From Candidatus Bathyarchaeota archaeon (GTDB lineage Archaea; Thermoproteota; Bathyarchaeia; Bathyarchaeales; Bathycorpusculaceae), in NCBI GenBank assembly GCA_963715865.1, contig OY970280.1, positions 2,290,844-2,354,843 of the forward strand: DNA of 64,000 bases, given 5' to 3'. Below are positions 18,088 to 62,613 of the stretch, piece by piece. The position numbers and the translations under genes were made by a program. Positions within the stretch are counted from its first letter, which is position 1; each line of letters begins with the position of its first letter. The notes under the pieces were generated by a model. The model ran no database searches, had not been told where the DNA came from, and saw nothing but the letters and a program-made list of their open reading frames with translations.

Positions 18088-19473
18088 GTGAAAATTACTC
18101 TCATCAACCCCCCATACCCGCCAAACGTACATTCGCATCCACCCTTCATTCCACTAGGCATAGCTTACCTTGGCGCAGTAGCTGAAAAAGAGGGGCATGA
18201 AGTAAACGTTATCGATTGCCAAGCGGAAAGGCTCACTTATGATACTTTCCGACAGAGAATTAGCCAGCTCAACCCCGACATCATCGGAGCAACAGCCACA
18301 ACACTCCTCTACAAATCAGCCATGAAGCTAATCAACATAGCTAAAGAAACACACCCACAAGCAATAACAATGCTCGGCGGAAGTCACGGAACCTTCTGGG
18401 ATGAAAACGCACTCAAAGAATACCCCAACCTAGACATCGTCGTACGAAGAGAAGGCGAAATCACCTTCATAGAGCTACTCAGCCAACTCCAAACCAACAG
18501 CAGCCTCAAAGACGTTTTAGGCATAACCTTCCGCCAAAAAGACGACACAATAGTACGCACACAAGACAGACCATTCACCCAAGACTTAGACGCACTGCCC
18601 TTCCCAGCACACCACCTTCTCCCACTCGACTCGCTAAAACGAATGGGCAAAATCCTCTTCCCACTAATCACCAGCCGCGGATGCGTCTACTGGTGCGACT
18701 TCTGCAGCACTGTGCGCATGTTCGGCAGAGGATACCGCATGCGAAGCCCCAAAAACGTCGTCGACGAAATGCAACTCATCCACGACAAATATAACGTCAA
18801 CCAAGTAACATTTTACGATGACGCCTTCACAGTCAACCGCGACCGCGTCCTAAAAATCTGCGAAGAACTCCACGCTCGGAAGCTCGACATGATTTGGGAT
18901 TGTGGAACACGCGTAGATATGGTTGACCGTGAGCTACTCAAAACCATGCGCGACGCAGGATGCATAGCAGTTTGGCTAGGAGTAGAATCAGGCTCAGAAG
19001 CCATTTTAGGCGCAATGAACAAAAAAATAAAGCTTGACCAAACACGCCTAGCCTACAAAACAGCGCACAACGTAGGGTTAATGACGATTGCTAACGTAGT
19101 CTTGGGCTTTCCAGGTGAGACAGAACAAACAGCGCGGGAAACTATCCGCTTCGTCAAAGAATTAAACCCAGACGATGTCGGATTCTACGTCGCCACACCA
19201 TACCCTGGAACACCCATGTACGAGCAAGTTAAGAAAAACGGTTGGCTACGCGTCACCGACTTCGACAAATACGACACAGCAGGACCAACATTCGAAACCC
19301 CATGGCTAAGCATGGAAAAACTTGCACAAATCCGCTACAAAGCCTACCAACAATTCTACCTGCGACCAGGATACGTGTTTAAGATGATGCGCAAAGGCGG
19401 AACATACGGCATCTCAGCAGTAAAAACTTCAGGTGCTTACTTGCTCAGGGCTTTGCACGTGAAGCTCTCTTAA
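18088..19473 (+). CDS. Cobalamin-binding radical SAM enzyme (1 of 7)
   Basis: N-terminal B12 domain (LINPP, PLGIAYL, GGSH); SRGCVYWCDFC; GVESGS. Confidence 0.93.
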   Translation: MKITLINPPYPPNVHSHPPFIPLGIAYLGAVAEKEGHEVNVIDCQAERLTYDTFRQRISQLNPDIIGATATTLLYKSAMKLINIAKETHPQAITMLGGSHGTFWDENALKEYPNLDIVVRREGEITFIELLSQLQTNSSLKDVLGITFRQKDDTIVRTQDRPFTQDLDALPFPAHHLLPLDSLKRMGKILFPLITSRGCVYWCDFCSTVRMFGRGYRMRSPKNVVDEMQLIHDKYNVNQVTFYDDAFTVNRDRVLKICEELHARKLDMIWDCGTRVDMVDRELLKTMRDAGCIAVWLGVESGSEAILGAMNKKIKLDQTRLAYKTAHNVGLMTIANVVLGFPGETEQTARETIRFVKELNPDDVGFYVATPYPGTPMYEQVKKNGWLRVTDFDKYDTAGPTFETPWLSMEKLAQIRYKAYQQFYLRPGYVFKMMRKGGTYGISAVKTSGAYLLRALHVKLS

Positions 19474-19737
19474 TTTTCTTATAAATACGACTACTGCAAA
19501 GACTAACACAAGTACGCTAAGAGAAATTGTTATTGAAGTGAAGTTCATCCCGATAGGTGAGAGACCTAAGAATAAGCCTACAAGCCCATCTAAGCCAAAA
19601 CTTAATGCAACAGACAACACTATTTCTTCTACAAAATCAAGCTTGTTTCTATTCATAAACAAAATGTTAACTAAACAGTAACCTGGCAAAAATGCGACAA
19701 AAACAAAACCGAAAACATAACGAAAAACAACAAGCAA
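19429..19737 (-). CDS. DUF1616-like small membrane protein (frame stays open about 28 codons upstream, possible CTG start near 19821)
   Basis: FLPGYCL...LF...EEIVLSVALS...GLFL...PIG hydrophobic pattern. Confidence 0.65.
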   Translation of the reverse strand: MLVVFRYVFGFVFVAFLPGYCLVNILFMNRNKLDFVEEIVLSVALSFGLDGLVGLFLGLSPIGMNFTSITISLSVLVLVFAVVVFIRKLRELHVQSPEQVST

Positions 19738-19871
19738 CGAGTCGCTTGGAATAAGATAAGTTACAAGTAACGTTAAAGCGGTGAAACCAGCAATAATTTC
19801 AAACCATCTAAGCGGTTTCAGTTTATAGACACTTCAAAAAATTAAAACAATAAAAAATAAAGGAAGGAGTT

Positions 19872-20783
19872 TTACATGAAAGCTCTGAAGATCGGATGAG
19901 TTTCTTCTAGTGGTCTTGTTTCGAGATCAGCTGCGGCAGATGCAATGTATATGTCAACTACTGCAACGGCTGGGAATACCCATTCTGCTTGTTCTGCTGG
20001 TCCAATCATTAGCCAGTTTGCGCCGACTGTTTGCATTATCGCGTTAGTAGCGGTTACGCATCCTTTTCGGAATTCTTTGGCAATGTTCGCTTTAACCCAA
20101 CCCATGGTTGTGACAACGTTTCCGCTGCCTAAGCCTACTGGGTGACCATACTTCTCTTTCATTATAGGTATGGTTCTTACTGCAGTGCCCATGTCAGGAG
20201 CAAAAGCGGGAATAGCAGTGTCAATAAGAGGCTTTGTGATTCCACCTTTCTCTGCCAATGCTAAAGCTTCTTGTATAACAGTCATCTTTCCTTCGAGGCT
20301 GTTGTCTTTGGGATTGTCAGCGAGCACTATGGACATTTTGATGCCACTATCTTTTAGAACTGCCAATTCAACATCAGTTACGCCTTTGTAAACTGAGTTA
20401 TAGAAGCATCTGTCTGATAAGCCCATTTTCTTAGCCATGATTGCAGCTGACATGCGTGTCTTAGGACTCATTGCATCTAACATGATTGGAGCATCACTAT
20501 ATTTAGCAACAAAGTCAATGTATTTCCCGAAGGCTTCTTCTGTTGTTCCGACCACATCGAAACCAAATGGAACGCCTGTAATGTCGCTTTGAGTTTGCAT
20601 CGTATTGATTATTTTTTCTGCTTCTTTTGCATCAAAAATGCCTTTGTTTGCATCTTGAACCATTTTCTGGCCTAGCCAAAAGATAGAACCAATCAGAAAA
20701 GTAGGTAGTTCACCTGGCTGACCGCCTACTTTTACTTTGCCTACTGTGTATATGTTTTGTTTCGTATTGAATTTGAAGGACAT
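19872..20783 (-). CDS. mtrH: MtrH-family pterin:corrinoid methyltransferase (stand-alone)
   Basis: FKF...KVGGQPGELPTFLIGSIF...KGIFD N-terminus; PLIDTA; no mtrA-G in the window. Confidence 0.88.
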   Translation of the reverse strand: MSFKFNTKQNIYTVGKVKVGGQPGELPTFLIGSIFWLGQKMVQDANKGIFDAKEAEKIINTMQTQSDITGVPFGFDVVGTTEEAFGKYIDFVAKYSDAPIMLDAMSPKTRMSAAIMAKKMGLSDRCFYNSVYKGVTDVELAVLKDSGIKMSIVLADNPKDNSLEGKMTVIQEALALAEKGGITKPLIDTAIPAFAPDMGTAVRTIPIMKEKYGHPVGLGSGNVVTTMGWVKANIAKEFRKGCVTATNAIMQTVGANWLMIGPAEQAEWVFPAVAVVDIYIASAAADLETRPLEETHPIFRAFM

Positions 20784-20802
20784 TTTTCCTCATCTGATGG
20801 AT

Positions 20803-21231: not shown

Positions 21232-21353
21232 TTAAACACCTTTTTTCCTTTTTTTTGTTACTCTGGGCTTTTTATACTCGAATTTCATATTTAAGCTTTG
21301 ACTAATAATTCCATCAATGCGAAAGCATAAAACTACGGAAAGGTGGGGAGCAA

Positions 21354-23657
21354 ATGTTCAAAGCAACCAGAAAACATGTCTTGCTATTGTTGATTTTCAC
21401 TTTCGCATTCATTTACCGTATGCTTCTAATGCTTTGGCAAACGTTTCCGCCAGGCGCTGACATCGGCTTACATAACAGCGTCATTAACTCAATTACACAA
21501 TCAGGTAACACAAATTTCCTATGGGATTACTACCAGATGGGCGGAGGATTATCCTTGACTTTTCCAGGATACCACATTTTCGCTTCAGGAATAATAATGG
21601 TGACTGGAATGCCTGATTATCTGGTGCAGTCTGTTATTGTAGCTTTGTTCTCGTCGCTTATTGTTTTCTGCGCGTTCTTGATAACTCGAACTGTATGGAC
21701 TGAATCAGCCGCTTTCATTGTCGCATTTTTAGTGGCAATCTCACGCTTTGATATAGAAATGCTCCTGTGGGGAGGCTACCCCAACGTAATAACCCTGCTT
21801 CTGATTCCTTTAACTTTCTACCTGTACCTTCAAAGAGACAGGTTTTCGCTAACGCCTTTTCTAGCATCAACCTCTATTTTAGTGGGCTCAATATTTTTAA
21901 CTCACTCTTTAAGCGCCGCCGTTTTCGTTAGCATAACAGTGGGCACCGTGCTCTGTGTAATGGTTTCACCTAAAACGTTTGGTACATCAAGGAAACATGT
22001 CCTTTATTGGTTGCTGCCAATATTTGGCGGAGCAGTCCTTGTTTCGCCTTTTCTAGCAAGTGCGGTGCCCGCATATTTCGATGCTAACTCTACATTTACA
22101 GGCGTCACTGATATTCAGCAGGCATTGCTCTCAACGAGAGTGCTTCCACTTGATATAGTATTAGCACTTTTTGCTTGTCTTTTGCCGTTCTTTTTGTTAT
22201 CGAAAAAATATAAAGGACGATTTTTTTCGCTTCCAGCGTTTCTCCTTATCATGTGGCTTTTAGTTCCCTTATTGTTAACACAGGGCTACATGTTTGGGCT
22301 TTATGTAGATTACAATCGGTTTCTATACTTCCTAATTTTACCAGTAATGATACTTTTAGCTATGATGATTGATCACGGCTCAGGATACTTTGCACAAGTA
22401 ATAGACACCTACCATGTTCTAACTAGCCAAATGCAGAAAACAAAGAAGACCGCAAACAAGTTAGTATCGCGAATCTCAACTCGCATAACCCGCAAAACTA
22501 TTTATTCTATCTTTTTATTGTGCTTCTTGCTTACCTGTCTCTTTGCCTTGCCAATCTTTCTCACTCCTTGGCAAGGCGTCACAATTCAAAGTTTCTACCA
22601 AGTTATGAACAATCCTGGATACCAAGCAATAGAGTGGGCGAAGCAAAACACGCCAGTTGGCTCAGTGTTTGTTTCTGATGCTCTTTACGGATGGTGGCTT
22701 GGCGGTTTCGCTCAGCGGCCAACTTTGAGTGCGGTTGACCCACAATATTTAACGGTTGCCCGAGAGTTGGCACCAGCTAAGGCTGCTAAAAATCTTCTTG
22801 ATACTGACTACATGATTGACAACGGTTACATTCAGGTTAGGGAAGATGGCGGATACACTGGTAGACATAATCCTATGTTTCTGGCTGATCTTAACTGGAC
22901 GTATTTTCCCTACTCCTTCTTTCAGTTTAATAATAGCGAGATTATGTTGCTTTCGCGGAATGGCGAATCTGTGCAATCTACCGACATAACTCAAATACCT
23001 GTAACTAATATGCAACTCGTCGGCGCGCAAACTGATAATCCATCTATTATTGTTAACAAAGGAAACAGCGAGTTCAATTACTCAGAAATTTTAACTGTCT
23101 CAAAAGGGGTTACATTCGCAAATATGACTATAGTAATCCAGAGCGACGCTCAAAATGTTTCCTTAGATTGGATTAATTTCATTTTAAACTCGCAGGGTAA
23201 ATTTCAACAACCAAATGGAAATACTATTGCAATGTTGGATGTAGGTATGAAGGAGTGCGGTCAACTGATTTTTGTAGAAAATCAGCCACAAGTTCTTTCT
23301 CTCAATTCAGAGAATCCGTGTGTTACAGAATTATCTTATAATTTACAAGGCCAATCTACAGCGGAAATTCAAATCTTAGTTGGAATCTACCAAGTTTCCG
23401 AAACTGACATAGAAAACCAAGCAAGCCTCAACAAAACGTTAACAGGTAATGTTCAAAATGCGCAAACACCAACTATCAGCTTGCCTATGGACACGTTCGA
23501 TTACCAAACAGCTATGCAACAATATTCGGTTTCATACATTGCAAATCGCGATTTTGAATTAAACCCAAAATTTGCTGATGACCCCGCATTTAACCTTGTA
23601 TTTATTAATAATGAAGTTGCCATCTTTAAGGTGAAATCCAACCTAGTTGGGAGTTAG
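21354..23657 (+). CDS. GT-C-like multi-pass membrane glycosyltransferase with a large extracellular domain
   Basis: PPGADIGLH loop after TM1, FPGYH, about 13 TM helices, SDALYGWW (AglB WWD-like position), sequon-rich C-terminal domain. Confidence 0.65.
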   Translation: MFKATRKHVLLLLIFTFAFIYRMLLMLWQTFPPGADIGLHNSVINSITQSGNTNFLWDYYQMGGGLSLTFPGYHIFASGIIMVTGMPDYLVQSVIVALFSSLIVFCAFLITRTVWTESAAFIVAFLVAISRFDIEMLLWGGYPNVITLLLIPLTFYLYLQRDRFSLTPFLASTSILVGSIFLTHSLSAAVFVSITVGTVLCVMVSPKTFGTSRKHVLYWLLPIFGGAVLVSPFLASAVPAYFDANSTFTGVTDIQQALLSTRVLPLDIVLALFACLLPFFLLSKKYKGRFFSLPAFLLIMWLLVPLLLTQGYMFGLYVDYNRFLYFLILPVMILLAMMIDHGSGYFAQVIDTYHVLTSQMQKTKKTANKLVSRISTRITRKTIYSIFLLCFLLTCLFALPIFLTPWQGVTIQSFYQVMNNPGYQAIEWAKQNTPVGSVFVSDALYGWWLGGFAQRPTLSAVDPQYLTVARELAPAKAAKNLLDTDYMIDNGYIQVREDGGYTGRHNPMFLADLNWTYFPYSFFQFNNSEIMLLSRNGESVQSTDITQIPVTNMQLVGAQTDNPSIIVNKGNSEFNYSEILTVSKGVTFANMTIVIQSDAQNVSLDWINFILNSQGKFQQPNGNTIAMLDVGMKECGQLIFVENQPQVLSLNSENPCVTELSYNLQGQSTAEIQILVGIYQVSETDIENQASLNKTLTGNVQNAQTPTISLPMDTFDYQTAMQQYSVSYIANRDFELNPKFADDPAFNLVFINNEVAIFKVKSNLVGS

Positions 23658-27309: not shown

Positions 27310-27765
27310 CTATTCAGTTTTATTGCCACGCGTCCGCTTGTTTTGAAGTAACCCTTCAACGGTGAAAACGCTCAGTGCCAATCCAGTTATAAGCATTAAT
27401 AACAGGAAGAAAATTTTGAATTCGTAAGTTTCATGTGGAAAATGTATGATTAAAACGTAGAGTTCAACGATTAAAATAGCTAGGAAAAGAAGGGAGTAAC
27501 GCCACATTGTCGGTATCAAGCGGCGACCAACCCAGACGTATCCACTCACGTGCGCTTTGTTTTTTGCAATGTACTCGCCATACTCGTTTTTTTGTAGATA
27601 GCTAAGGTCTTCAAGTTTCTGCAAGTGCCTGTAAGCCACGCTGGGGCTGCTTAGGTTCACAGCTTTCATGACATCTCTGGGGCCGACTGGTTTGCCTTTT
27701 TTTACAACGTACAAGTATACGTTTAATGTGATTCCTTCCAGTTCCTCGCTATTGGCCCTCGTCAC
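27310..27765 (-). CDS. Winged-HTH regulator with two C-terminal TM helices
   Basis: VYLYVVKKGKPVGPRDVM...LSSPSVAYRHLQKL followed by two hydrophobic segments. Confidence 0.8.
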   Translation of the reverse strand: MTRANSEELEGITLNVYLYVVKKGKPVGPRDVMKAVNLSSPSVAYRHLQKLEDLSYLQKNEYGEYIAKNKAHVSGYVWVGRRLIPTMWRYSLLFLAILIVELYVLIIHFPHETYEFKIFFLLLMLITGLALSVFTVEGLLQNKRTRGNKTE

Positions 27766-32094: not shown

Positions 32095-32290
32095 TGATAG
32101 TCCCTCTTGGTCGCAGTTTAAAACGGTTTGATAACATAATAAAGATTACGTTAAAAAGCCAAATTAACTAAAAAAGTGTAGTTCCACAAGTTATATAAAT
32201 AATTGCGGAGACAAACTAAGTCATTGGGCAAGGGGTATATTGTTTATGCTTCTTGTTCAATGCAAAATAAAATTTAGGAGAAAAAGAAAA

Positions 32291-35290: not shown

Positions 35291-35293
35291 ACT

Positions 35294-46606: not shown

Positions 46607-46700
46607 GCCAACTTATTTTTGCTGTTCTTTTTGGAGAACACTCTGTTCCTTGGGGAGAGCTAAAAGAATCTTTGCAATAGCATCTAGCAAGGGCTTAAAC

Positions 46701-54848: not shown

Positions 54849-57608
54849 ATGCAAATTACAAAAAGTAAAACTGCAGCTATTGCGATCGCAATATTCTTGA
54901 CATTTTCAATGACAGCTTCAATGATGCTAGTGCCAACTGCTAATGCACACACACCTGCATGGCAGATTCCAACGTGGGCCTACATTAACGCTGCACCTAA
55001 CCCAGTAGGCGTCGGTCAAAACGTGCTTGTTATCATGTGGCTAACCAACATATTTTCCCCTGGAACAGGGATAGCAAACGATTACCGGTTCCACAATTAC
55101 AAGCTAACTATTACAGCACCTGACGGGACAACATCGACACAGAGCTGGGGCGAAGTCGTAGACTCTACATCAGCGCAAGACTATACGTTTGCTCCCAGCC
55201 AAGTCGGAACGTATAATTTGACCTTCACTTTCCCAGGACAAGACTTCAACACATACAGCCATGATACTAGTTGGGTCAGCTTGTTTGGTGGTGGGCCTCA
55301 ACCTGAAACGTTGATTAACGACACTTATCTGGCCAGCAGTGCGTCAATAAATCTCACTGTACAGCAAACCCCAATATCCGCATATCCAACTACTCCGCTT
55401 CCAACTGCTTACTGGACACGCCCAATATACGGTTATAACTCTAACTGGTGGACAATTTCGTCAAACTGGCTAGGTTCAGGTTCACCTGTTGAAGCTTCAG
55501 CAGGCTCTTGGGCCATCGGTGCCTATGGTGCAAACGGTGTATTTTCAGGTTCAGCTCTCAATAGGAATCCAGGCGACGCTATAGGTTCTCAAACTAGTCA
55601 CATCATGTGGACTAAGCCGCTTCAAGAAGGAGGAATCGTCGGAGGAAACAACTTTGCTATTCAAGGAGACAGTTACTTCGAAGGTTCTGCGTACATTCAA
55701 CGATACGACAATCCGATAATAATGGATGGAATACTCTACTATCAGGCGCCGCTAGGATACGATTATAATGGAGGTGGATCGGGCGGTGGAACTTTCGCCG
55801 TTAACCTGCAGACAGGACAGCAACTTTGGGAAAGCACTGCTATACCCGCTGGAGGACTATCATTCGGTTACATCTATGACAGCCAGCAACCCAACCAGAA
55901 AGGAGTTATGCAGCCGGTTCTATTCACCAGCAGCTTTGCCCAAGCTTATGACGCATACACAGGACAATATCTGTTCAACGTGACTAACGTTCCAAGCGGT
56001 CTTCCAATAAGCATGGGTCCAAACGGTGAAACCATAAGCTACCCCATTGTAAACGGTTATGTGGCTGAGTGGAACTCGTCCGGCCTATGGAATTGGAACA
56101 TACCAGTCGGCGGAGGCTCACCAGCACCTAACGTAGGTAGCTTTAGCGTTACAGCATTCAATCCCTACATACCGCCCGCCGGTGCAATGGTCACAACTGA
56201 CTATTACAACACTGTCAATGGAGGCGCGCCTCAATGCTATGACTGGAACGTTTCAATAACATCATCAACACCCTTACCAAGTTCCTACTCGGAAATCGCA
56301 GCTTACTGGGGCAATTTGATACTTTGCGAAAGTGGCGGTTTGCCGGGAATAAGCACTGGTATGTTAACCGGCGGTGTCTTTAGCAACACCGCGCCATACA
56401 CATACTTTGCTATCAACGTCAACGCAACTAGAGGTGCAGTGGGTTCAGTACTGTGGACGAAAACAGTTAATCCACCAGCAGGCAACGTAACCGTCTTATT
56501 AGGACCAACCGATCCAACGGCAGGCGTTTTCACTGAAGGGTACGAGCAAACTATGCAATGGGTAGGATACAACCTATACACAGGTGCGCAAATGTGGGGT
56601 CCAACTCCATCCCAAGCAGCTCTTGACTACTACGGTAACCCAATCACGCCCTTTATAGTATCTCAACTTGCTTACGGCAACCTCTACAGCATGGGGTACG
56701 CAGGAATACTCTACTGCTACGATGCGAAAACTGGAAACCTAAAGTGGACCTACGGTAACGGCGGCGCAGGCAACAGTACTTACGCCGGCATGGACTCACC
56801 TTTCGGTGATTATCCAACCTTCATAAACGCCGTCGGTAACGGAGTGATTTACCTAGTTGCTTCCGAGCACACTGTTAACACGCCGATTTACAAGGGTGCA
56901 CTAGAACGTGCAATCAATGCCACTGACGGATCGGAAATCTGGACACTCTCAGGTTACACAGGGGAATTCTCAGCTATGAGTTACGCTATCGCAGACGGCT
57001 ATGCAACATGGTTTAATGGCTATGACAACCAAATCTACGTTGTAGGCAGAGGACCAAGCGCAACTACAGTGACAGCGCCAAACAACGGCCTAGCCCTCGG
57101 ATCACAAGTAGTAATACGCGGTACAGTAACGGACATCTCCGCGGGAACACAGCAGGATCAACAGGCAACTGACTTTCCAAATGGTGTTCCAGTTGCATCT
57201 GATGCTAGCATGAGCGCGTGGATGAGTTACGTTTACCAGCAACAACCATGCCCAACCAACTTTACCGGCGTTCCAGTGACAATAAGTGTCTTAGACTCTA
57301 ACGGCAACTTCAGAAGCATTGGTACTGCAACAACTGACGGAACCGGCATGTTCAGCCTCACATGGACACCTGACATTCCAGGCAACTACACAGTTGTCGC
57401 ATCTTTCGCTGGCACCAACGGTTACTGGCCATCAAACTCAGAAACCTCTTTTGCCGTAGCGCAAGCGCCATCAGCAACTGCTGCACCTACACCAACTCCG
57501 CAATCTGCCGCTGACATGTACTTTGTTCCTGCAATCGCTGGACTATTCGTTCTAATAATCATAGTCCTCGCTGTAGTAATACTACTGATGCTTAGAAAAC
57601 GACCATAA
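54849..57608 (+). CDS. Large membrane-anchored surface protein with PQQ-like repeats, paralog of 32291-35290
   Basis: Same signal peptide, scaffold motifs, PT linker, TM helix and RKRP tail. Confidence 0.85.
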   Translation: MQITKSKTAAIAIAIFLTFSMTASMMLVPTANAHTPAWQIPTWAYINAAPNPVGVGQNVLVIMWLTNIFSPGTGIANDYRFHNYKLTITAPDGTTSTQSWGEVVDSTSAQDYTFAPSQVGTYNLTFTFPGQDFNTYSHDTSWVSLFGGGPQPETLINDTYLASSASINLTVQQTPISAYPTTPLPTAYWTRPIYGYNSNWWTISSNWLGSGSPVEASAGSWAIGAYGANGVFSGSALNRNPGDAIGSQTSHIMWTKPLQEGGIVGGNNFAIQGDSYFEGSAYIQRYDNPIIMDGILYYQAPLGYDYNGGGSGGGTFAVNLQTGQQLWESTAIPAGGLSFGYIYDSQQPNQKGVMQPVLFTSSFAQAYDAYTGQYLFNVTNVPSGLPISMGPNGETISYPIVNGYVAEWNSSGLWNWNIPVGGGSPAPNVGSFSVTAFNPYIPPAGAMVTTDYYNTVNGGAPQCYDWNVSITSSTPLPSSYSEIAAYWGNLILCESGGLPGISTGMLTGGVFSNTAPYTYFAINVNATRGAVGSVLWTKTVNPPAGNVTVLLGPTDPTAGVFTEGYEQTMQWVGYNLYTGAQMWGPTPSQAALDYYGNPITPFIVSQLAYGNLYSMGYAGILYCYDAKTGNLKWTYGNGGAGNSTYAGMDSPFGDYPTFINAVGNGVIYLVASEHTVNTPIYKGALERAINATDGSEIWTLSGYTGEFSAMSYAIADGYATWFNGYDNQIYVVGRGPSATTVTAPNNGLALGSQVVIRGTVTDISAGTQQDQQATDFPNGVPVASDASMSAWMSYVYQQQPCPTNFTGVPVTISVLDSNGNFRSIGTATTDGTGMFSLTWTPDIPGNYTVVASFAGTNGYWPSNSETSFAVAQAPSATAAPTPTPQSAADMYFVPAIAGLFVLIIIVLAVVILLMLRKRP

Positions 57609-57760: not shown

Positions 57761-58591
57761 ATGAGGAGTAAACAGTTGCAACAAGACCAAACGCTTAAAG
57801 AAAAAATTCACAAAGCAAACGTTTCCGTCCACCGGCATGAAGCGCAATACTATGAACTGCTCCATCCAGAAGTATATACTAAACAAGAGCAAAAAAGAAT
57901 AACCGCAAAACTAGAAATGATGAACAAACTTGTGACAGATAACCAAAAAAACGCTCTTGACGTTGGAGCAGGCACCGGCAACTTAACAGGCAAACTTTTG
58001 CAAATGGGCTATAAAGTTATAGCCGTAGACATATCAGCAGAAATGTGTTCAATCTTGCGAAGAAAATATGATGCCTACCTGAAAAGTAACAAGTTGACCA
58101 TAGTCAACTCGCCAATAGAGAATCTGGCTTTTGATGTGGGCAAATTTGACTTAATAACATGCTACTCTGTGCTTCACCACCTACCTGATTACGTCAATGC
58201 GCTCCGATGCCTTTCCGTTTTTCTAAAGAAAGGCGGCGCAATCTACATTGACCATGAAGCGTCCCCTTTTTACTGGAAAACCGAACCGAGCAGCTTAGCT
58301 ACCCTGATCAAGAGTATCTATTTTCATTTAAACCCTTTATTTAACAGCTTATACTTCCAAATTATCGGGTTAAACGTTCCCTCAATCGATTATTCCCTGT
58401 CGGATTACTGGCATAAAAAAGAACACGCATTAGACCATAAAAGCGTAGAACAAGTATTCAAAGAAGAATGCTATGAATTCTCGAGGCGCACGGACTATTA
58501 TCAAAACAGCACATGGATTCCGAACCCTCTATCTATAATTTATCGTCTTCTTTGCAGGCCTGAAATGAGTTTTTGGATAGCTAAAAAATAA
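57761..58591 (+). CDS. Class I SAM-dependent methyltransferase
   Basis: LDVGAGTG, VDISAEM, FDLI.C.SVLHH and LKKGG motifs. Confidence 0.92.
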   Translation: MRSKQLQQDQTLKEKIHKANVSVHRHEAQYYELLHPEVYTKQEQKRITAKLEMMNKLVTDNQKNALDVGAGTGNLTGKLLQMGYKVIAVDISAEMCSILRRKYDAYLKSNKLTIVNSPIENLAFDVGKFDLITCYSVLHHLPDYVNALRCLSVFLKKGGAIYIDHEASPFYWKTEPSSLATLIKSIYFHLNPLFNSLYFQIIGLNVPSIDYSLSDYWHKKEHALDHKSVEQVFKEECYEFSRRTDYYQNSTWIPNPLSIIYRLLCRPEMSFWIAKK

Positions 58592-59968
58592 TTAAGCGAT
58601 TCCTGCGTTTTTCTGGGCGCTAAGATTCAGTCTTCGTTTTGCAAAGTTTAAAGCGCCTTCACGCCTGATTCTTTTTAGTATTTGTTTGGGTGATCTATGG
58701 AATTCTTTGAAAAATCTTTTTTGAATCGCCATAAGCGAGTCATAGTCAAATTCCTCGGTTTTTACGCTGAGTAAAAACTCGTCAAGGCGAACGTACTTTT
58801 TTGTTTCCAAAAGTTCTTGGTATAATTTGCTGTCTGGGTACGCGATGAAAATGTTGAATTGACACCAATCAGGGTCCAATTTTTTAGCGAATTTTAAGGA
58901 CGCTTCCATTTCCTTTATTGTTTCGTCAGGCAAACCTAGCATGAATGAGCAAGCGATTTGTATTCCGTTTTTGCGGCAAAGCTTAAACGCGCTTTCTATC
59001 TGTTCAAGTGTTGTGTTTCTGCCGATTCGCTGTAAAATTTTCTGTGAACCTGATTCAACTCCGAACCAAATGGTTTTGCATCCAGCTTTGCTCATTGTTT
59101 CTAAAAGGTCTTGGTTGACTAGGTCTACGCGTGTGTCGCAGACCCATTCTAAATCCAGCTTGTTTTTTATCATTAGGTTGCATAGTTCAATAGTTTCTTT
59201 TTTTCTGAGGGTGAAGTTGTCGTTGATGAAGTATAGTCCTTTTGTACCGTATTTGCTCATTAAATCTTGAATTTCGCCGATAACTCTCTGCGGACTGAAC
59301 GCCCGGCACATGTTTCCCCAGAGTTTTTTTGTTTCGCAAAAGCCGCAGTTGAATACGCATCCACGTGAGATGCTCACGACATCGGCGGGTTTAACATTCA
59401 AAAACTCTATTGTCCTATCATACAATTCAAGCGGCAATAGGTGTCTTGCTGGGTAAGGAATTTCGTCGAGGTTTTCGATAAATTTCGGCTGGTTTTTGAT
59501 GTTTTTTCCTTGGCGTCTGCATGCAACGCCTGGAATAGTTGCGGCAATGGGCTCGTTGCCGTTTGCGATGCATGCGGCAAGTTGTGTTATTGCTCTTTCG
59601 CCTTCACCCATAACCACATAATCGATTTCTGGGTTCGCCAGTAAACTATCAGGCATATAGGAAGCATGCCATCCGCCAACAACTATTTTGCAGTTGGGCA
59701 AGGCTTCTTTGATGGCTTTTGCTGTTTCTATGCAGCGTGAATAAGTTGCTGAACCGCATGTAATGCCCACAATTTGCGGGTTAAGGTTTGTGACTAATTG
59801 CTTGATTTCACCGGTTGATTTTTTCATGAGGTAGTTGTCGAGCATTTGCACCTCGAAGCCTGCTTTTTCGAGTGCCGCGGCAACGTACATTAATCCGATT
59901 GGAGGCAACCGTTTGCCAAGGTACCATGCGCCGTTTTCTGGCGGAGCAGTAGTCATTAAGAGAATCAA
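58592..59968 (-). CDS. Cobalamin-binding radical SAM enzyme (6 of 7)
   Basis: PPIGLMY, GGWHAS; SRGCVFNCGFC. Confidence 0.93.
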   Translation of the reverse strand: MILLMTTAPPENGAWYLGKRLPPIGLMYVAAALEKAGFEVQMLDNYLMKKSTGEIKQLVTNLNPQIVGITCGSATYSRCIETAKAIKEALPNCKIVVGGWHASYMPDSLLANPEIDYVVMGEGERAITQLAACIANGNEPIAATIPGVACRRQGKNIKNQPKFIENLDEIPYPARHLLPLELYDRTIEFLNVKPADVVSISRGCVFNCGFCETKKLWGNMCRAFSPQRVIGEIQDLMSKYGTKGLYFINDNFTLRKKETIELCNLMIKNKLDLEWVCDTRVDLVNQDLLETMSKAGCKTIWFGVESGSQKILQRIGRNTTLEQIESAFKLCRKNGIQIACSFMLGLPDETIKEMEASLKFAKKLDPDWCQFNIFIAYPDSKLYQELLETKKYVRLDEFLLSVKTEEFDYDSLMAIQKRFFKEFHRSPKQILKRIRREGALNFAKRRLNLSAQKNAGIA

Positions 59969-60311: not shown

Positions 60312-61028
60312 ATGAAAGTTGTCGTCCACTGGAGCGGGGGCAAAGAATGCTGCTTAGCTTACCACAAAGTCATCAAACAGGGGCATCAGGTTGCTTATCT
60401 TCTCACCTTTGAATACATGAAACCATACGTTTTTCACAGTTTCCCAGTGATGGAGCTCCAATCCAAAACTTTGGGGGCTCCCTTGAAGCGGGTTAGAATT
60501 AAGAAGGCATACGAGGACATCCTCAAAACTCTCACAAAGTTACACGACGAAGAGGGCATCGAAGGCATCGTAACCGGCGACATAGTCGGAGCAGGATGCG
60601 CCGTTGTCCACTCTAGCTACTACGAGAGCATGTGCAAACAGTTGGGCATGGCTTTCATGATGCCCTTGGAAAACCCTTCAGGAGACACTTACGATGTGTT
60701 GAAAGAAGTGGTTCAGACCGGCTTAAGACCAGTATTAAACTGTATTAATACCAATTTCTTTGGTGAAGAATGGTTGGGACGCGCAATCGACAGCACATCC
60801 ATCAAAGAACTAAAAGACTTAGCTGACAAAAAAGACATAGACGTTTCCAGCGAAGACGGACAAGGTTACCACACCTCAGTTGTCGACGCACCGCTTTTCA
60901 AAGAATCCATCGGAATTGGCAAATTTAAGAAGAAGACCAAGAAGGAAAAGTCGAAGGCATGGAAAAGAAATTGGCTTTACATGGACATCAAGGAAGCTTA
61001 TTTAAAGCCTAAAGAAACGCCCAAATGA
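60312..61028 (+). CDS. Diphthine-ammonia ligase (Dph6)-like PP-loop ATPase
   Basis: WSGGKEC (SGGKDS variant), GIVTGDI and EDGQGYHTSVVDAPLF (cf. GEGGEYHT..D.PLF). Confidence 0.8.
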   Translation: MKVVVHWSGGKECCLAYHKVIKQGHQVAYLLTFEYMKPYVFHSFPVMELQSKTLGAPLKRVRIKKAYEDILKTLTKLHDEEGIEGIVTGDIVGAGCAVVHSSYYESMCKQLGMAFMMPLENPSGDTYDVLKEVVQTGLRPVLNCINTNFFGEEWLGRAIDSTSIKELKDLADKKDIDVSSEDGQGYHTSVVDAPLFKESIGIGKFKKKTKKEKSKAWKRNWLYMDIKEAYLKPKETPK

Positions 61029-61182
61029 CAAGCACCGAAGATTCCTCTTTACTTAATTCGTAACTTTTTACAGCTATCTCTGGTAATGAGGGTACTTTGC
61101 AAAAAATCTGTAATTTTGCATAAAGTAAATGAACCTGAACGCGCGCTTACAAGGTATAAACTCTATTGTTTCAGGGAAGAAC

Positions 61183-61281
61183 ATGAAAACTCACGTAACC
61201 CTTGTGAATCCACCCTACCCCGTGAATATGAGAACTCGCGTAACGGTACAAGACAAAATAATTGAGCATGGAGAAAGCTGA
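61183..61281 (+). pseudogene. Truncated N-terminus of a further B12 radical SAM gene (32 aa)
   Basis: MKTHVTLVNPPYP matches MKAHVVLANPPYP (43395 gene) and MKITLINPPYP (18088 gene); the similarity then ends. Confidence 0.6.
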
Positions 61282-61284
61282 CCG

Positions 61285-62613
61285 TTGATTTTACTTATGA
61301 CCGCTGCCCCACCTTTGAAATCGCCTTGGGATATGGCGGGGAAGCTTCCTCCACTGGGGTTAGCTTATGTTGCTGCAGCTTTAGAGACGAACGGCTTCCA
61401 CGTAGAAATTCTTGACAATTACCTGCTTGAAAGACCAATTGAAGAGGTTAAATTGGAAGTGAGAAAGCATGCCCCAGAAATAGTGGGCATAACCTGCAGT
61501 TCTCTGACTTATACGCGCTGTATCGAGACAGCTAAAGCAGCCAAAGAAGCATACCCATCCTGCAGGGTAGTAGCGGGAGGACCGCATCCCTCGTACATGC
61601 CACAAACCATGCTGCAACACGAAGAGATAGATTACGTGGTTATTGGCGAGGGAGAGCAGGCAATGGTGAAACTCGCCGCCAGCATCATGAAAGGCGAAGA
61701 AAACGCGGCGATTGCCAAAATTCCAGGTGTAGCATGCAGGATTAACGGCGAAGTAATCAAGAATGCGCCTGAATTCATCAGTGATTTGGATCAAGTTCCC
61801 TTTCCAGCGCGTCATCTGCTGCCAATGCAAATGTACGACCGTGCACTAAGCTATTTGAGTGTTAAACCTGTCGATACCATGAGCATACTGCGTGGTTGCC
61901 CATACAATTGCGCGTACTGCGAAACTAGAGAATTATGGGGAAACACTTGTCGAGCCTTCTCGCCCCAAAGAGTCACAGACGAAATAAAGCACATGGTTGA
62001 AAACTATGGTTCAAGGGGAATCTACTTCGTCGGCGACAACTTCACCATAAACAAAAACCGTACAGCTGAGCTGTGCAGACTAATCAGAAATAACAGAATA
62101 GACGTCAAATGGATATGCGAAACCAGAGCCGACCTTATCTCCAAAGAGTTGCTTGTTGAAATGAAATCTGCTGGCTGCCAAACCATATTCTTCGGAGTGG
62201 AGTCCGGTTCACTTCCAATCCTGCAAAAGCTAGGCAAAAACATCAATTTGCAAGAAGTCGAACATTCTTTCGAGCTTTGCAGGCAATTGGGAATACGAAC
62301 GGCCACTTCTTTTATGCTGGGCATCCCTGGTGAAACAGTTAACGACATGAAAGCCTCATTCAAGTTTGCAAAGCACCTAAACGCGGACTGGTGCCAATTC
62401 AACATTTACGTAGCGTGCCCCGGCAGCAGACTGTACGATGAAGTGATGAGCCAAGGCTTGTACGACCAGATGGATAACTATTTGGCAAGGGTAAAAACCA
62501 AAGAATTCGATTACGAGATGCTCGTCAAGATTCAGCGGGATTTTCAGCGAAACTGCCAGAAGTCGGCGGCGTCTAGGCTGACGCGAGTAATAGCGCGCAT
62601 AAGTGGTCATTAA
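61285..62613 (+). CDS. Cobalamin-binding radical SAM enzyme (7 of 7; closest to 58592-59968)
   Basis: MILLMT.APP, PPLGLAY, GGPHPS; RGCPYNCAYC.ET..LWGN.CRAFSPQRV. Confidence 0.93.
   Translation: MILLMTAAPPLKSPWDMAGKLPPLGLAYVAAALETNGFHVEILDNYLLERPIEEVKLEVRKHAPEIVGITCSSLTYTRCIETAKAAKEAYPSCRVVAGGPHPSYMPQTMLQHEEIDYVVIGEGEQAMVKLAASIMKGEENAAIAKIPGVACRINGEVIKNAPEFISDLDQVPFPARHLLPMQMYDRALSYLSVKPVDTMSILRGCPYNCAYCETRELWGNTCRAFSPQRVTDEIKHMVENYGSRGIYFVGDNFTINKNRTAELCRLIRNNRIDVKWICETRADLISKELLVEMKSAGCQTIFFGVESGSLPILQKLGKNINLQEVEHSFELCRQLGIRTATSFMLGIPGETVNDMKASFKFAKHLNADWCQFNIYVACPGSRLYDEVMSQGLYDQMDNYLARVKTKEFDYEMLVKIQRDFQRNCQKSAASRLTRVIARISGH

What the first reader, a model, noticed from the sequence alone, without database searches (positions are those of the whole stretch)
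18088..62613. Radical SAM island: seven B12-dependent radical SAM enzymes co-encoded with surface proteins, GT-C transferases and a cofactor supply chain
Seen: 10 radical SAM genes in about 45 kb (7 with B12 domains, 2 SPASM, 1 HemN-like). They sit with a class I methyltransferase, 4 PQQ-like and 2 Ig-like membrane-anchored proteins, 2 GT-C-like enzymes, DUF1616, cbiB, an MtrH-like/corrinoid pair and an RnfD-[4Fe-4S] fusion. cbiZ, a ferredoxin and metK lie just left of it. Established: B12 radical SAM enzymes methylate or cross-link unactivated carbons and need SAM, a cobamide and low-potential electrons; archaeal members such as GrsA/B modify tetraether lipids. Inference: this is a dedicated envelope-tailoring system acting on lipid-linked glycans, membrane lipids or the surface proteins, carrying its own cobamide, methyl and electron supply. 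I recognise no named pathway with this composition.
Basis: partly seen in the sequence, partly recalled or inferred. Interest (0 to 1): 0.85.

Follow-up and report, generated by a model that had tools for sequence, protein, structure and literature searches.

The report
Radical SAM island in peat Bathyarchaeia
A peat-dwelling archaeon packs nine vitamin-B12-type radical enzymes and their vitamin-assembly genes next to its membrane-lipid and cell-surface genes; related species keep this layout, and it most likely tailors membrane lipids, though no function has been tested.

Summary
Pfam confirms 7 B12-binding radical SAM (rSAM) genes, 2 SPASM and 1 HemN-like gene in 44.5 kb (0.85 rSAM genes expected). 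The window ends a circular 2.35 Mb Bathyarchaeia genome with no mcrA. Across the junction lie 2 more B12-rSAMs, a third SPASM enzyme, a CobD-like gene, CobY-like, CobS, GT2/GT4 genes, UbiA and tetraether synthase Tes.

Nine of the genome's 12 B12-rSAMs sit here, in separate orthogroups (two are a recent duplicate pair). Five same-genus genomes keep the island, and a sixth keeps part of it. A core (SPASM, orphan RnfD-ferredoxin, S-component-like protein, HemN-like, MtrH-corrinoid, two STT3-like GT-C genes) recurs in 33-55 of 80 Bathyarchaeia loci.

No rSAM gene reaches any curated family cut-off. The closest known kind is the archaeal tetraether-tailoring cluster (Gms SPASM + Gmm/Grs/Ted B12-rSAMs). 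Papers already note many B12-rSAM copies in Bathyarchaeota and the MtgA-MtgC-glycosyltransferase cluster.

Best reading (about 0.4): a modular lipid/envelope-tailoring neighbourhood with linked cobamide assembly. A dedicated methyl and electron supply is not shown. The modules separate in some relatives, and the surface-protein genes look like independent cassettes.

The parts
8500..9678 (+). MetK, bacterial/eukaryal-type SAM synthetase. Only copy in the genome. Lies in a housekeeping block left of the island.
   Evidence: Pfam S-AdoMet_synt N/M/C domains; single phmmer hit in the genome
15040..15264 (+). Small ferredoxin-like ORF directly upstream of cbiZ
   Evidence: One full CxxCxxCxxxC motif found by script; a second, variant Cys cluster seen by eye
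15288..16334 (+). CbiZ (adenosylcobinamide amidohydrolase), CbiS-like
   Evidence: PF01955 E 4e-47; NF038002 CbiS 122 bits, below its cut-off of 250
18088..19473 (+). B12-rSAM 1. Its orthogroup is adjacent to MtrH in 20 of 80 Bathyarchaeia loci.
19429..19737 (-). DUF1616-type small membrane protein (102 aa), downstream of MtrH
   Evidence: PF07760 61.7 bits, cut-off 31.6; region conserved in 35 related loci
19872..20783 (-). MtrH-like pterin:corrinoid methyltransferase (published as MtgA in Bathy-6). Only copy in the genome.
   Evidence: PF02007 E 2e-77; TIGR01114 264.9 bits against a cut-off of 271.4; PMC11697101
20803..21231 (-). Cap-less 142-aa corrinoid protein (MtgC-like). 79-99% identical in 16 aligned homologs (median about 91% over 35 loci).
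21354..23657 (+). GT-C-like, distant STT3/AglB relative, copy 1 (13 hydrophobic segments plus a C-terminal domain)
23802..25985 (+). GT-C-like, distant STT3/AglB relative, copy 2
26061..27140 (-). rSAM-SPASM 1, AhbD/NirJ/PqqE-like but below all cut-offs. Present in 55 of 80 loci.
27310..27765 (-). Putative membrane-tethered regulator: weak HTH hits (LexA/IclR, below cut-off) plus 2 hydrophobic segments. One of 6 paralogs in the genome.
28102..29463 (+). Orphan RnfD/NqrB-like membrane protein fused to an RnfC-type 2x[4Fe-4S] domain
29620..30283 (+). Membrane protein with an ECF-S-component-like fold. Homologs are about 221 aa. Here one extra base near 29703 shifts the frame.
30793..32094 (-). 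HemN-like class C rSAM (ChuW/HutW, HemW and HemN all below cut-off). 70-94% identical across the class.
32240..35290 (+). Anchored surface protein (borderline PQQ_2 and sub-cut-off Big_3_5 hits). Member of a family of about 17 dispersed paralogs.
35422..36837 (-). B12-rSAM 2. Its orthogroup is found in 28-30 class loci.
36996..39236 (-). PQQ-like beta-propeller protein, anchored at both ends
   Evidence: PF13570 537.7 bits, PF13360 414.7 bits
39321..40394 (-). rSAM-SPASM 2. Sits between the two propeller genes; this adjacency is conserved in 14-16 loci.
40655..43291 (+). PQQ-like beta-propeller protein, anchored at both ends
43395..44864 (-). B12-rSAM 3
45038..46606 (+). Amidohydrolase (Amidohydro_3). 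Only copy in the genome. Conserved in the genus island.
46650..47399 (+). Membrane-anchored protein of unknown family, weak paralog of 51001-51840
47403..47669 (-). Conserved 88-aa hydrophobic, probably membrane, protein downstream of B12-rSAM 4
47770..49218 (-). B12-rSAM 4
49274..50263 (-). CbiB, a second copy. The other CbiB sits beside CobD at 1.413-1.415 Mb.
   Evidence: TIGR00380 238.7 bits against a cut-off of 165.9
50474..50908 (+). Putative membrane-tethered regulator, paralog of 27310-27765 (weak TrmB-type HTH hit, 3 hydrophobic segments)
51001..51840 (+). Small anchored protein with a weak Ig-like hit
51924..53321 (-). B12-rSAM 5 (63% identical to B12-rSAM 8, 54% to B12-rSAM 1)
53454..54494 (-). 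Tandem Lrp/AsnC regulator. Its paralogs elsewhere also sit beside Surf-family genes.
54849..57608 (+). Anchored surface protein of the Surf family
57761..58591 (+). Class I SAM methyltransferase
58592..59968 (-). B12-rSAM 6. In G001 and G011 it directly adjoins the CobD-like/GT2/GT2/GT4 block.
60312..61028 (+). Dph6-like PP-loop ATPase paralog. A second copy flanks B12-rSAM 8/9.
61285..62613 (+). B12-rSAM 7, a recent duplicate of B12-rSAM 9 (91.6% DNA identity)
62614..64000 (.). 1.4 kb with no ORF of 112 aa or more (longest 111 aa, no Pfam hit) and no RNA family match. Runs up to the contig junction. Unexplained.

Best explanation
This is a conserved but modular chromosome neighbourhood of a peat Bathyarchaeon, about 63 kb once the contig is closed. 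It holds nine cobalamin-type radical SAM enzymes (seven anciently diverged orthogroups plus one recent duplicate pair), three AhbD-like SPASM radical SAM enzymes and a HemN-like enzyme. Encoded with them are late cobamide-assembly and salvage genes (CbiZ, a second CbiB, a CobD-like gene, CobY-like, CobS) and membrane or envelope genes.

The most likely common job is radical tailoring of membrane-bound isoprenoid lipids (tetraethers and diethers): C-methylation, ring formation, cross-linking or desaturation. This is what the known archaeal enzymes Gms (SPASM), Gmm/Cgm/Pgm, Grs and Ted (all B12-rSAM) do downstream of Tes. Each paralog would handle a different position or substrate.

Shown: gene content, enrichment, orthogroup structure, conserved linkage, duplicated cobamide genes, and an equivalog-level Tes nearby.

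Inferred: the lipid substrate; that the orphan RnfD-ferredoxin and its S-component-like partner feed electrons or a flavin at the membrane; that the GT-C/GT2/GT4 genes and surface proteins belong to the same envelope programme rather than being mere neighbours.
For: 1. Ten rSAM genes lie in 44.5 kb against 0.85 expected. Counting Tes, 14 of the genome's 45 rSAM genes lie within about 63 kb across the junction.
2. Nine of the 12 BchE/HpnJ-like B12-rSAMs lie here. They are 28-63% identical to one another, apart from one recent pair. Paralogs 1-6 and 8 each have their own orthogroup in genus relatives, and paralogs 1-6 also in class loci.
3. The island order is kept in G001, G002, G011, G013 and G014, and in part in G007. 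Genus genomes carry 5-17 copies; other families of the order carry 0-4.
4. Core linkage holds across 80 Bathyarchaeia loci.
5. Tes (NF045702 465.6 bits, cut-off 450) is translationally coupled to a UbiA prenyltransferase 13-17 kb from the last B12-rSAM. A 474-aa AhbD-like SPASM enzyme lies between them. Tes is also 12-16 kb from the island in G011 and G013. The SPASM-DUF362 pair adjoins the island in G001, G013 and G014 and in two class loci.
6. Precedent from papers: gms (SPASM, with AhbD as outgroup), gmm and grs cluster together; Bathyarchaeota carry multiple Gmm2-clade copies; most peat Gms homologs group with Bathyarchaeota (PMC11214058). A Bathyarchaeal B12-rSAM is a tetraether desaturase (10.1101/2025.10.20.683597).
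7. The lipid-type models HpnJ and HpnR, and for paralogs 6 and 7 also the ladderane-cluster 'lipid biosynthesis' model, rank among the better sub-threshold NCBIfam hits.
8. Second CbiB plus CobD-like, CobY-like, CobS and CbiZ.
Against: - No island paralog reaches any curated cut-off. Their best models are BchE and HpnJ, not an archaeal lipid family.
- Homology to Gmm, Grs or Ted could not be tested, because no reference sequence was available.
- The paralogs are 442-489 aa, while Ted homologs were searched at 500 aa or more.
- Tes is not within 10 kb of the core in any class-level locus. It lies 44 kb away in G001 and on another contig in G014.
- The class-wide neighbours of B12-rSAM 1 and 2 are MtrH-corrinoid and HemN-like/propeller genes, not lipid genes.
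- Housekeeping genes (MetK, GPN GTPase, M48 protease) share the conserved synteny. Slow rearrangement of this region could therefore explain part of the linkage.
- Several members (propeller proteins, amidohydrolase, Dph6-like, MtrH) have no role in any known lipid pathway.
Confidence: 0.4

Rival explanations
1. Glycan or surface-protein tailoring. The B12-rSAMs, the class I methyltransferase and the CobD-like PLP enzyme modify sugars of lipid-linked glycans, or residues of the co-encoded secreted proteins. The two STT3-like GT-C enzymes then transfer the products to the anchored surface proteins.
For: - Two STT3/AglB-related GT-C paralogs exist in addition to a canonical AglB elsewhere.
- Two DUF1616 genes are present.
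- A GT2-GT2-GT4 block and an aminotransferase-fold gene directly adjoin B12-rSAM 6 and the methyltransferase in G001 and G011.
- rSAM genes and anchored surface proteins are interleaved.
- The second-best PDB hit is MgmA, a protein C-methylase.
Against: - Across the class, the GT-C pair is linked to MtrH-corrinoid, not to the GT2/GT4 block.
- Only 2 of 8 propeller paralogs and 2 of about 17 Surf paralogs lie in the island. The Surf genes carry their own regulator cassette.
- The WWDYG-like position reads GWWLGG in the alignment consensus, so sequon-type transfer is doubtful.
- The GT-C model was too poor to use (pLDDT 51).
Confidence: 0.2
2. No single pathway. This is a slowly rearranging chromosome region where cobamide-dependent enzymes and cobamide genes have accumulated, perhaps for co-regulation. 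The rSAM paralogs serve unrelated substrates, and the surface-protein cassettes are insertions.
For: - The modules separate in relatives: 340 kb apart in G001, and an 11-gene housekeeping block is inserted in G011, G013 and G014.
- Housekeeping genes share the conserved synteny.
- Genes point in many directions, giving many small transcription units.
- The Dph6-like/B12-rSAM 8-9 cassette sits at different island positions in G000, G002 and G011.
- MtrH, the corrinoid protein, MetK and RnfD-Fd are single-copy in the genome.
Against: - The modules stay adjacent even after inversion (L045, L062, L081).
- Nine of 12 paralogs in under 3% of the genome is hard to reach without selection for linkage.
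- Second copies of CbiB and a CobD-like gene lie inside the island, not beside the canonical pair.
Confidence: 0.18
3. Transformation of plant-derived (lignin or humic) compounds. The extracellular PQQ-like proteins and the cytoplasmic B12-rSAMs, together with the MtgA/MtgC methyl-transfer pair, process methoxylated or alkylated aromatics. This was proposed for Bathy-6.
For: - PMC11697101 reports 7-20 COG1032 B12-rSAMs and many secreted PQQ-domain proteins per Bathy-6 MAG and proposes lignin metabolism.
- The closest related MAGs and all listed DNA holders come from peat, wetland or soil metagenomes.
- B12-rSAM 1 lies beside MtrH-corrinoid in 20 loci.
Against: - To my knowledge no B12-rSAM has a catabolic role on aromatics.
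- No substrate-specific MT1 (MtgB/MtoB type) gene was seen in the window.
- The propellers match BamB-like PQQ_2 and ACSF4 models far better than quinoprotein dehydrogenase models.
- No PqqD was found in the genome.
Confidence: 0.12
4. Tetrapyrrole or corrinoid remodelling. BchE-like, AhbD/NirJ-like and ChuW-like enzymes, with CbiZ, CbiB, CobD and an S-component-like importer, salvage and rebuild tetrapyrroles or make an unusual cobamide.
For: - The best sub-threshold models are tetrapyrrole enzymes: BchE, AhbD, NirJ, ChuW/HutW.
- Cobamide loop genes are duplicated here.
- The membrane protein beside RnfD-Fd has an S-component-like fold.
Against: - All scores lie far below cut-off (for example AhbD 199-216 bits against 500).
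- The tandem Lrp/AsnC protein scores 37-42 bits against AhbA/AhbB cut-offs of 125-140, and it behaves as the regulator of the Surf genes.
- The tetrapyrrole theme may simply reflect which family members were characterised first.
Confidence: 0.05
5. A RiPP-type cluster in which the rSAM enzymes modify a small ribosomal peptide.
For: ApyD and RiPP C-methyltransferase models appear among the sub-threshold hits. PqqE is the best PDB hit for SPASM 1.
Against: - No PqqD/RRE domain was found anywhere in the genome.
- The SPASM enzymes have no N-terminal recognition domain; the rSAM domain starts at residue 15.
- The conserved small ORFs are hydrophobic, probably membrane, proteins, not precursor-like peptides.
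Confidence: 0.03

Closest known systems
Archaeal tetraether-lipid tailoring clusters: gms-gmm-grs of Thermococcus guaymasensis, and ted-hgs-grs of Ca. Bathyarchaeota B1_G15 (PMC11214058; 10.1101/2025.10.20.683597)
   Same: A SPASM-type rSAM related to AhbD is encoded with B12-binding rSAMs in one cluster. The genes occur in archaea that have Tes. Bathyarchaeota are reported to carry several divergent copies. The chemistry acts on unactivated carbons of membrane lipids.
   Different: Here there are nine B12-rSAMs rather than one or two. Membership in the Gmm, Grs or Ted clades is untested. The paralogs are shorter than Ted. Cobamide genes, an orphan RnfD-ferredoxin, MtrH-corrinoid, GT-C genes and surface proteins are interleaved. 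Tes lies 13-17 kb away, not in the cluster.
Bathy-6 MtgA-MtgC neighbourhood and the B12-rSAM/PQQ-protein expansions (PMC11697101, main text and Fig. S4)
   Same: An MtrH homolog, a corrinoid protein, a hypothetical protein and two glycosyltransferase-family genes are conserved. Each MAG holds 7-20 COG1032 B12-rSAMs and many secreted PQQ-domain proteins. CbiZ-based salvage is present.
   Different: In the text and legends read here, that paper treats the rSAMs as an abundant annotation and maps them on the genome. It does not describe an island, the RnfD-ferredoxin core, the duplicated CbiB/CobD-like genes or the nearness to Tes. Its proposed role is lignin metabolism.
Class B (cobalamin-dependent) radical SAM enzymes BchE, HpnJ, HpnR, MgmA and AprD4
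   Same: An N-terminal B12-binding domain plus a CX3CX2C rSAM core. These are the best models and the best PDB hits.
   Different: Scores are 162-258 bits against a cut-off of 481 for BchE, and 165-242 against 578 for HpnJ. Neither bacteriochlorophyll nor hopanoid synthesis is expected in this archaeon (my inference; not searched).
Rnf/Nqr complexes (subunits RnfD/NqrB and RnfC)
   Same: An RnfD-family membrane core and an RnfC-type two-cluster ferredoxin segment.
   Different: The two are fused into one protein. RnfA/E and ApbE were not found, and there is no GAT flavinylation motif. Some homologs carry an extra FrhB domain. The protein is paired with an S-component-like membrane protein.

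Membership tests
Cobalamin-dependent (class B) radical SAM | N-terminal B12-binding domain followed by a radical SAM core with CX3CX2C | tested here: met
   PF02310 and PF04055 exceed their cut-offs in all 7 window genes. The 2 genes at the contig start score 622-636 bits to the paralog HMM, and their rSAM core exceeds the PF04055 cut-off. Motifs are listed.
Cobalamin-dependent (class B) radical SAM | Binds cobalamin and performs methyl transfer or other Cbl-dependent radical chemistry | not testable with these tools
   Needs biochemistry.
BchE (TIGR02026) / HpnJ (TIGR03471) | Score at or above the curated equivalog cut-off (481 / 578 bits) | tested here: not met
   BchE 162-258 bits; HpnJ 165-242 bits.
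GDGT-modifying B12-rSAMs (Grs, Gmm/Cgm/Pgm, Ted) | Falls in the Gmm/Grs/Ted clades (papers used BLASTP E <= 1e-65 to Tg-Gmm, or 1e-100 to Ted) | not testable with these tools
   No reference sequence could be obtained. TIGR04190 (Ta0216 family, which I recall as Grs-like) scores 55-105 bits against a cut-off of 500.
GDGT-modifying B12-rSAMs (Grs, Gmm/Cgm/Pgm, Ted) | Genomic clustering with tes, gms or grs | tested here: inconclusive
   Tes is 13-17 kb from the island in G000 and 12-16 kb in G011 and G013, but 44 kb away or on another contig in G001 and G014. An AhbD-like 474-aa SPASM enzyme adjoins the island.
Tetraether synthase Tes (flank gene L001:15440-16906) | NF045702 equivalog cut-off of 450 bits | tested here: met
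   465.6 bits, plus the HMPTM zinc-ribbon domain.
AhbD / NirJ / PqqE (SPASM enzymes) | Curated cut-offs (500 / 515 / 381 bits); PqqE also needs a PqqD partner | tested here: not met
   AhbD 199-216, NirJ 141-161, PqqE 110-121 bits. No PqqD in the genome.
HemN / HemW / ChuW-HutW | Curated cut-offs (325 / 205 / 400 bits) | tested here: not met
   130, 141 and 180 bits.
Rnf complex | RnfA/E, B, C and G subunits, plus ApbE-dependent flavinylation of an (S/T)GAT threonine in RnfD | tested here: not met
   No PF02508 and no ApbE in a 97.9%-complete genome. RnfB, RnfG and a separate RnfC were not searched. No GAT motif. Single RnfD-family gene.
GT-C / STT3-AglB oligosaccharyltransferase | Polytopic N-terminal domain with an acidic residue in the first external loop, a WWDYG motif, and sequence membership in STT3 | tested here: inconclusive
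   12-13 hydrophobic segments. Profile hits STT3B at E 1e-6 and AglB at 3e-3. Nearly invariant PPGADIGLH after TM1, and GWWLGG where WWDYG would lie (read by eye). No Pfam STT3 hit; archaeo_STT3 scores 21-29 bits against a cut-off of 450. The AF2 model was unusable (pLDDT 51).
Corrinoid methyltransferase system (MtgABC / MtoABCD type) | MT2 (MtrH-like) + corrinoid protein + substrate-specific MT1 | tested here: inconclusive
   MT2 and a cap-less corrinoid protein are present. No MT1-type gene appears among the window genes scanned. The rest of the genome was not searched for MT1.
RiPP biosynthetic cluster | Precursor peptide gene and an RRE/PqqD recognition domain | tested here: not met
   No PF05402 in the genome. 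No conserved precursor-like small ORF in the intergenic regions.

The most novel reading that the evidence does not exclude
The class-wide core works as a membrane-bound service unit for cobalamin radical SAM chemistry that bypasses the usual soluble supplies. In this reading, the orphan RnfD-ferredoxin (fused to an F420-type FrhB domain in some relatives), with its S-component-like partner, delivers low-potential electrons at the membrane. The MtrH/cap-less corrinoid pair recharges B12-rSAM 1 (and perhaps others) with methyl groups from methyl-H4MPT, that is from the C1 pool or from plant methoxy groups, rather than from SAM. Membrane lipid or envelope methylation would then be coupled directly to C1 metabolism, through a methyl route not described for any B12-rSAM.
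Probability: 0.08. Interest if true: 0.9.

Novelty: new variant of a known kind. Interest (0 to 1): 0.6.

Why it matters
Bathyarchaeia are among the most abundant uncultured archaea in peat and sediments. Peat also holds tetraether lipids (methylated, bridged and butanetriol forms) that are used as climate proxies but whose producers and enzymes are only partly known.

This island offers nine conserved, distinct B12-radical SAM orthogroups beside Tes as a short, testable list of candidate tailoring enzymes. The heterologous system for testing them already exists (Tes co-expression in M. acetivorans or T. kodakarensis).

The island also shows that late cobamide-assembly genes are duplicated and placed next to their probable main consumers. 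It defines an orphan RnfD-ferredoxin module, nearly confined to Bathyarchaeia, whose role in electron supply is open.

If the lipid reading fails, the region is still the best-defined locus for the B12-rSAM and PQQ-like protein expansions that others have tied to lignin turnover.

Tried and rejected
- Complex prediction of B12-rSAM 1 with the cap-less corrinoid protein gave no verdict (score 0.00). It counts neither for nor against binding.
- The AlphaFold model of GT-C copy 1 had pLDDT 51 and was not used for fold search.
- Search for RNA runs over 10 kb of the island: no RNA holder was listed.
- Metatranscriptome contigs (85-95% alike) from four peat runs of four studies were laid on 26000-45900. 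They cover parts of most genes from SPASM 1 to B12-rSAM 3. These are assembled contigs of relatives from RNA libraries, so they show neither transcription of this strain, nor expression levels, nor operons.
- Rfam at gathering threshold on the whole window gave only tRNA-Gly. At E <= 1 on 62600-64000 it gave only a chance lncRNA hit.
- Repeats in 62600-64000 were only short two- or three-copy families.
- PNAS supplement look-up: no supplement is held.
- Search of the ISME Commun supplement for six motif words from the island paralogs: no hit (at least one of the files was cut when stored).
- Protein Atlas on B12-rSAM 2: only generic B12-rSAM clusters.
- Earlier scan notes searched by words: none.
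- Reading the two SPASM genes, the HemN-like gene and the tandem AsnC protein as the alternative haem pathway (AhbABCD): rejected on scores and on the regulator's association with Surf genes.
- PQQ biosynthesis: rejected for lack of PqqD and sub-threshold PqqE scores.

Full report
WHAT IS THERE

- Seven genes join a B12-binding domain to a radical SAM (rSAM) core: 18088-19473+, 35422-36837-, 43395-44864-, 47770-49218-, 51924-53321-, 58592-59968-, 61285-62613+.
- Two genes are rSAM-SPASM (26061-27140-, 39321-40394-) and one is HemN-like (30793-32094-). All ten keep CX3CX2C.
- Also confirmed: a class I methyltransferase, CbiB, an MtrH-like gene with a 142-aa cap-less corrinoid protein, an RnfD-2x[4Fe-4S] fusion, two strongly PQQ-like propeller proteins, and two ~900-1000-aa proteins with borderline PQQ_2 and sub-cut-off Big_3_5 hits. 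All four large proteins carry N- and C-terminal hydrophobic anchors.
- Two polytopic proteins have a profile that hits STT3B (E 1e-6) and A. fulgidus AglB.
- A DUF1616 ORF lies at 19429-19737-.
- CbiZ, a small ferredoxin and MetK lie to the left.

The genome holds 45 rSAM matches. Ten in 44.5 kb compares with 0.85 expected (P about 3e-8).

ORGANISM AND TRUE EXTENT

- The window is the last 64 kb of a single 2.35 Mb contig. It is 42.8% GC and 97.9% complete with no mcrA.
- The nearest public relatives are peat and soil Bathyarchaeia MAGs, including 'palsa_986' and the SPRUCE and MFD bins.
- The island does not stop at 62613. Two more B12-rSAM genes open the contig (C1:16-1362 and 1408-2769).
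- In G001 and G011 the genes of the contig start lie directly beside the ortholog of B12-rSAM 6. The contig is therefore circular in effect.
- Nine of the 12 B12-rSAMs of this type in the genome sit in the island.
- Beyond them lie a Dph6-like paralog, a PIN gene, a CobD-like PLP enzyme (TIGR01140 269.5 bits, cut-off 290.6), GT2, GT2, GT4, DUF362 and a 474-aa AhbD-like SPASM enzyme. Then come a CobY-like nucleotidyltransferase, CobS, an epimerase, a UbiA prenyltransferase and Tes (NF045702 465.6 bits, cut-off 450), followed by a second DUF1616, GT2 and GT4.
- The island CbiB is a second copy. The canonical CbiB-CobD pair sits at 1.413-1.415 Mb.

PARALOG STRUCTURE

- The nine enzymes are 28-63% identical to each other. 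The exception is B12-rSAM 7 and 9, a recent segmental duplicate (90% protein identity, 91.6% DNA identity).
- In a tree with 106 homologs from relatives, paralogs 1-6 and 8 each have their own orthogroup in genus genomes; paralogs 7 and 9 are each other's nearest relatives, with no separate orthologs resolved. Paralogs 1-6 also have members in more distant Bathyarchaeia loci.
- These are old, separately maintained enzymes, which points to different substrates or positions.

CONSERVATION

- Genus genomes carry 5-17 copies. Other families of the order, with genomes of 1.1-1.9 Mb, carry 0-4.
- The island order is kept in G001, G011, G013 and G014: B12-6, methyltransferase, Surf, AsnC, B12-5, regulator, CbiB, B12-4, amidohydrolase, B12-3, propeller, SPASM 2, propeller, B12-2, HemN-like, S-component-like, RnfD-Fd, regulator, SPASM 1. 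G002 keeps it rearranged and G007 keeps part of it.
- In 80 Bathyarchaeia loci taken around RnfD-Fd homologs of 51-87% identity, counts are: SPASM 1 in 55, HemN-like in 51, the S-component-like gene in 49, the GT-C pair in 36-38, MtrH-corrinoid in 33-35, and B12-rSAM 2 and SPASM 2 in 30 each. Many loci are cut by contig ends, so these are minimum counts.
- Blocks stay adjacent after inversion (L045, L062, L081).

THE REGION IS MODULAR

- The B12-1/MtrH-corrinoid/GT-C module lies 340 kb from the rest in G001.
- An 11-gene housekeeping block (MetK, GPN GTPase, M48 protease, CbiZ and others) splits the island in G011, G013 and G014.
- The Dph6-like/B12-8/B12-9 cassette sits at different places in G000, G002 and G011.
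- That same housekeeping block is itself syntenic across the class (L021, L051). Part of the linkage may therefore reflect a slowly rearranging region.

INDIVIDUAL COMPONENTS

- No rSAM gene reaches a curated family cut-off. The B12 enzymes score best to BchE (162-258 bits, cut-off 481) and HpnJ. The SPASM enzymes score best to AhbD (199-216, cut-off 500). The HemN-like gene scores best to ChuW/HutW (180, cut-off 400).
- PDB neighbours are remote: AprD4, MgmA (9ccb, identified through PMC11796369), OxsB, TokK, PqqE and HemN.
- RnfD-Fd is an orphan. No RnfA/E or ApbE was found, there is no GAT flavinylation motif, and it is the only RnfD-family gene. Nine of the 120 listed homologs carry an extra FrhB domain, which points to F420H2 or ferredoxin as the electron source.
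- Homologs of its downstream partner are about 221 aa. Here one extra base near 29703 shifts the frame, and RNA-library contigs of relatives lack that base. The intact homolog folds (pLDDT 75) into a bundle of seven predicted helices whose best, weak matches are ECF S components such as ThiT and RibU. The language-model search pointed the same way.
- A canonical AglB exists elsewhere, so the two island GT-C genes are extra, divergent paralogs. The consensus reads GWWLGG where WWDYG would lie.
- The surface proteins belong to dispersed families: 2 of 8 propeller paralogs and 2 of about 17 Surf paralogs lie here.
- Tandem Lrp/AsnC paralogs sit beside Surf genes at four genomic sites. That protein is therefore a Surf regulator, not a sirohaem decarboxylase.
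- No PqqD/RRE was found in the genome. The conserved small ORFs are hydrophobic, probably membrane, proteins. This argues against a RiPP reading.

LITERATURE

- PMC11697101 (Bathy-6 MAGs) reports 7-20 COG1032 B12-rSAMs and many secreted PQQ-domain proteins per MAG, a CbiZ-based salvage route, and a conserved cluster of MtgA (an MtrH homolog), MtgC, a hypothetical protein and two glycosyltransferase genes (Fig. S4). It proposes lignin metabolism.
- PMC11214058 shows that GMGT synthase Gms is a SPASM/Twitch rSAM (AhbD was used as outgroup), and that Gmm is a B12-rSAM encoded beside it and beside grs. It also reports that many Bathyarchaeota carry multiple copies from the 'Gmm2' part of the tree, and that most peat Gms homologs group with Bathyarchaeota.
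- Preprint 10.1101/2025.10.20.683597 adds the GDGT methylases Cgm and Pgm and a tetraether desaturase, Ted, from a Bathyarchaeon.
- These tetraether-tailoring clusters are the closest known kind.

INTERPRETATION

The best-supported reading, at about 0.4, is a modular lipid/envelope-tailoring neighbourhood. The B12-rSAM and SPASM enzymes would modify membrane isoprenoid lipids downstream of Tes, with late cobamide assembly placed beside its main consumers.

The link to lipids rests on precedent and on nearness to Tes, UbiA and a Gms-like SPASM enzyme. It does not rest on shown homology to Gmm, Grs or Ted, which I could not test.

The rivals are glycan or surface-protein tailoring (0.2), a composite region with no single pathway (0.18), plant-polymer transformation (0.12), tetrapyrrole/cobamide remodelling (0.05) and a RiPP cluster (0.03).

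MtrH, the corrinoid protein, MetK and RnfD-Fd are the only copies in the genome and are conserved class-wide whatever the number of rSAM genes.

VERDICT

The inventory was read correctly and the envelope idea is reasonable. However, the system is not one demonstrated unit, and it has published near-precedents. It is a new, much expanded variant of a known kind of cluster, with several unexplained parts: the orphan RnfD-ferredoxin with its S-component-like partner, the STT3-like pair tied to MtrH-corrinoid, and the duplicated CbiB/CobD-like genes.

Noticed in passing
window 29620-30283 (frame break near 29703): The conserved membrane gene after RnfD-Fd is split by one extra base. Homologs such as L007:11580-12245 are 221 aa and intact. 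RNA-library contigs of relatives in three of the four peat runs laid lack one base at 29702-29704. It is either an assembly error or a strain-specific frameshift.
   Followed up: partly
window 62614-64000: 1.4 kb with no ORF longer than 111 aa (that one has no Pfam hit), no rSAM remnant, no Rfam match and only short repeats. It lies between the duplicated B12-rSAM 7 and the contig junction. One distant tblastx match to L009.
   Followed up: partly
window 61249-62579 and L001:1372-2696: Recent segmental duplication: B12-rSAM 7 and 9 share 91.6% DNA identity. The relatives examined (G002, G011) have only the Dph6-like/B12-8/B12-9 arrangement.
   Followed up: yes
proteins P0060, P0078, P0083, P0089, P0091-P0093, P0095, P0096, P0098: Some Bathyarchaeia homologs of RnfD-ferredoxin carry additional FrhB_FdhB N- and C-domains (about 715-732 aa). 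This suggests an F420H2-linked membrane oxidoreductase built on an RnfD core.
   Followed up: no
G000 around 1111k, 1625k, 2013-2014k and window 53454-57608: Tandem (two-module) Lrp/AsnC regulators lie beside Surf-family surface-protein genes at four separate sites. They look like a repeated regulator-plus-surface-protein cassette.
   Followed up: partly
window 27310-27765, 50474-50908; G000 about 199k, 738k, 1981k, 2254k: A family of six small proteins with weak HTH hits and 2-3 hydrophobic segments. Copies sit next to SPASM 1, B12-rSAM 5, the out-of-island B12-rSAM at 1979k, and a propeller gene at 2254k.
   Followed up: no
window 21232-21353 and 23658-23801: These short intergenic stretches beside the corrinoid gene and between the GT-C genes are unusually conserved (90-100% in translated comparison across 23-42 loci). 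They could be regulatory sequence or unannotated N-terminal extensions.
   Followed up: no
window 8500-9678: The only SAM synthetase found is of the bacterial/eukaryal MetK type (S-AdoMet_synt domains), not the archaeal MAT type. The archaeal family was not searched for.
   Followed up: no
window 14106-14990 and 16703-17602: Two paralogous glycoside-hydrolase-like barrel proteins (weak DUF4015/GHL10 hits, 6-7 Cys each) flank the ferredoxin-cbiZ pair and are conserved with it in the genus.
   Followed up: no
L001:13618-16906: The epimerase/dehydratase, UbiA prenyltransferase and Tes genes overlap at their ends (stop/start overlaps). They look like one lipid operon.
   Followed up: partly
window 47403-47669 (-): An 88-aa hydrophobic protein of no known family lies directly downstream of B12-rSAM 4. 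It is conserved in G001 and G011 (52-60% identity).
   Followed up: partly
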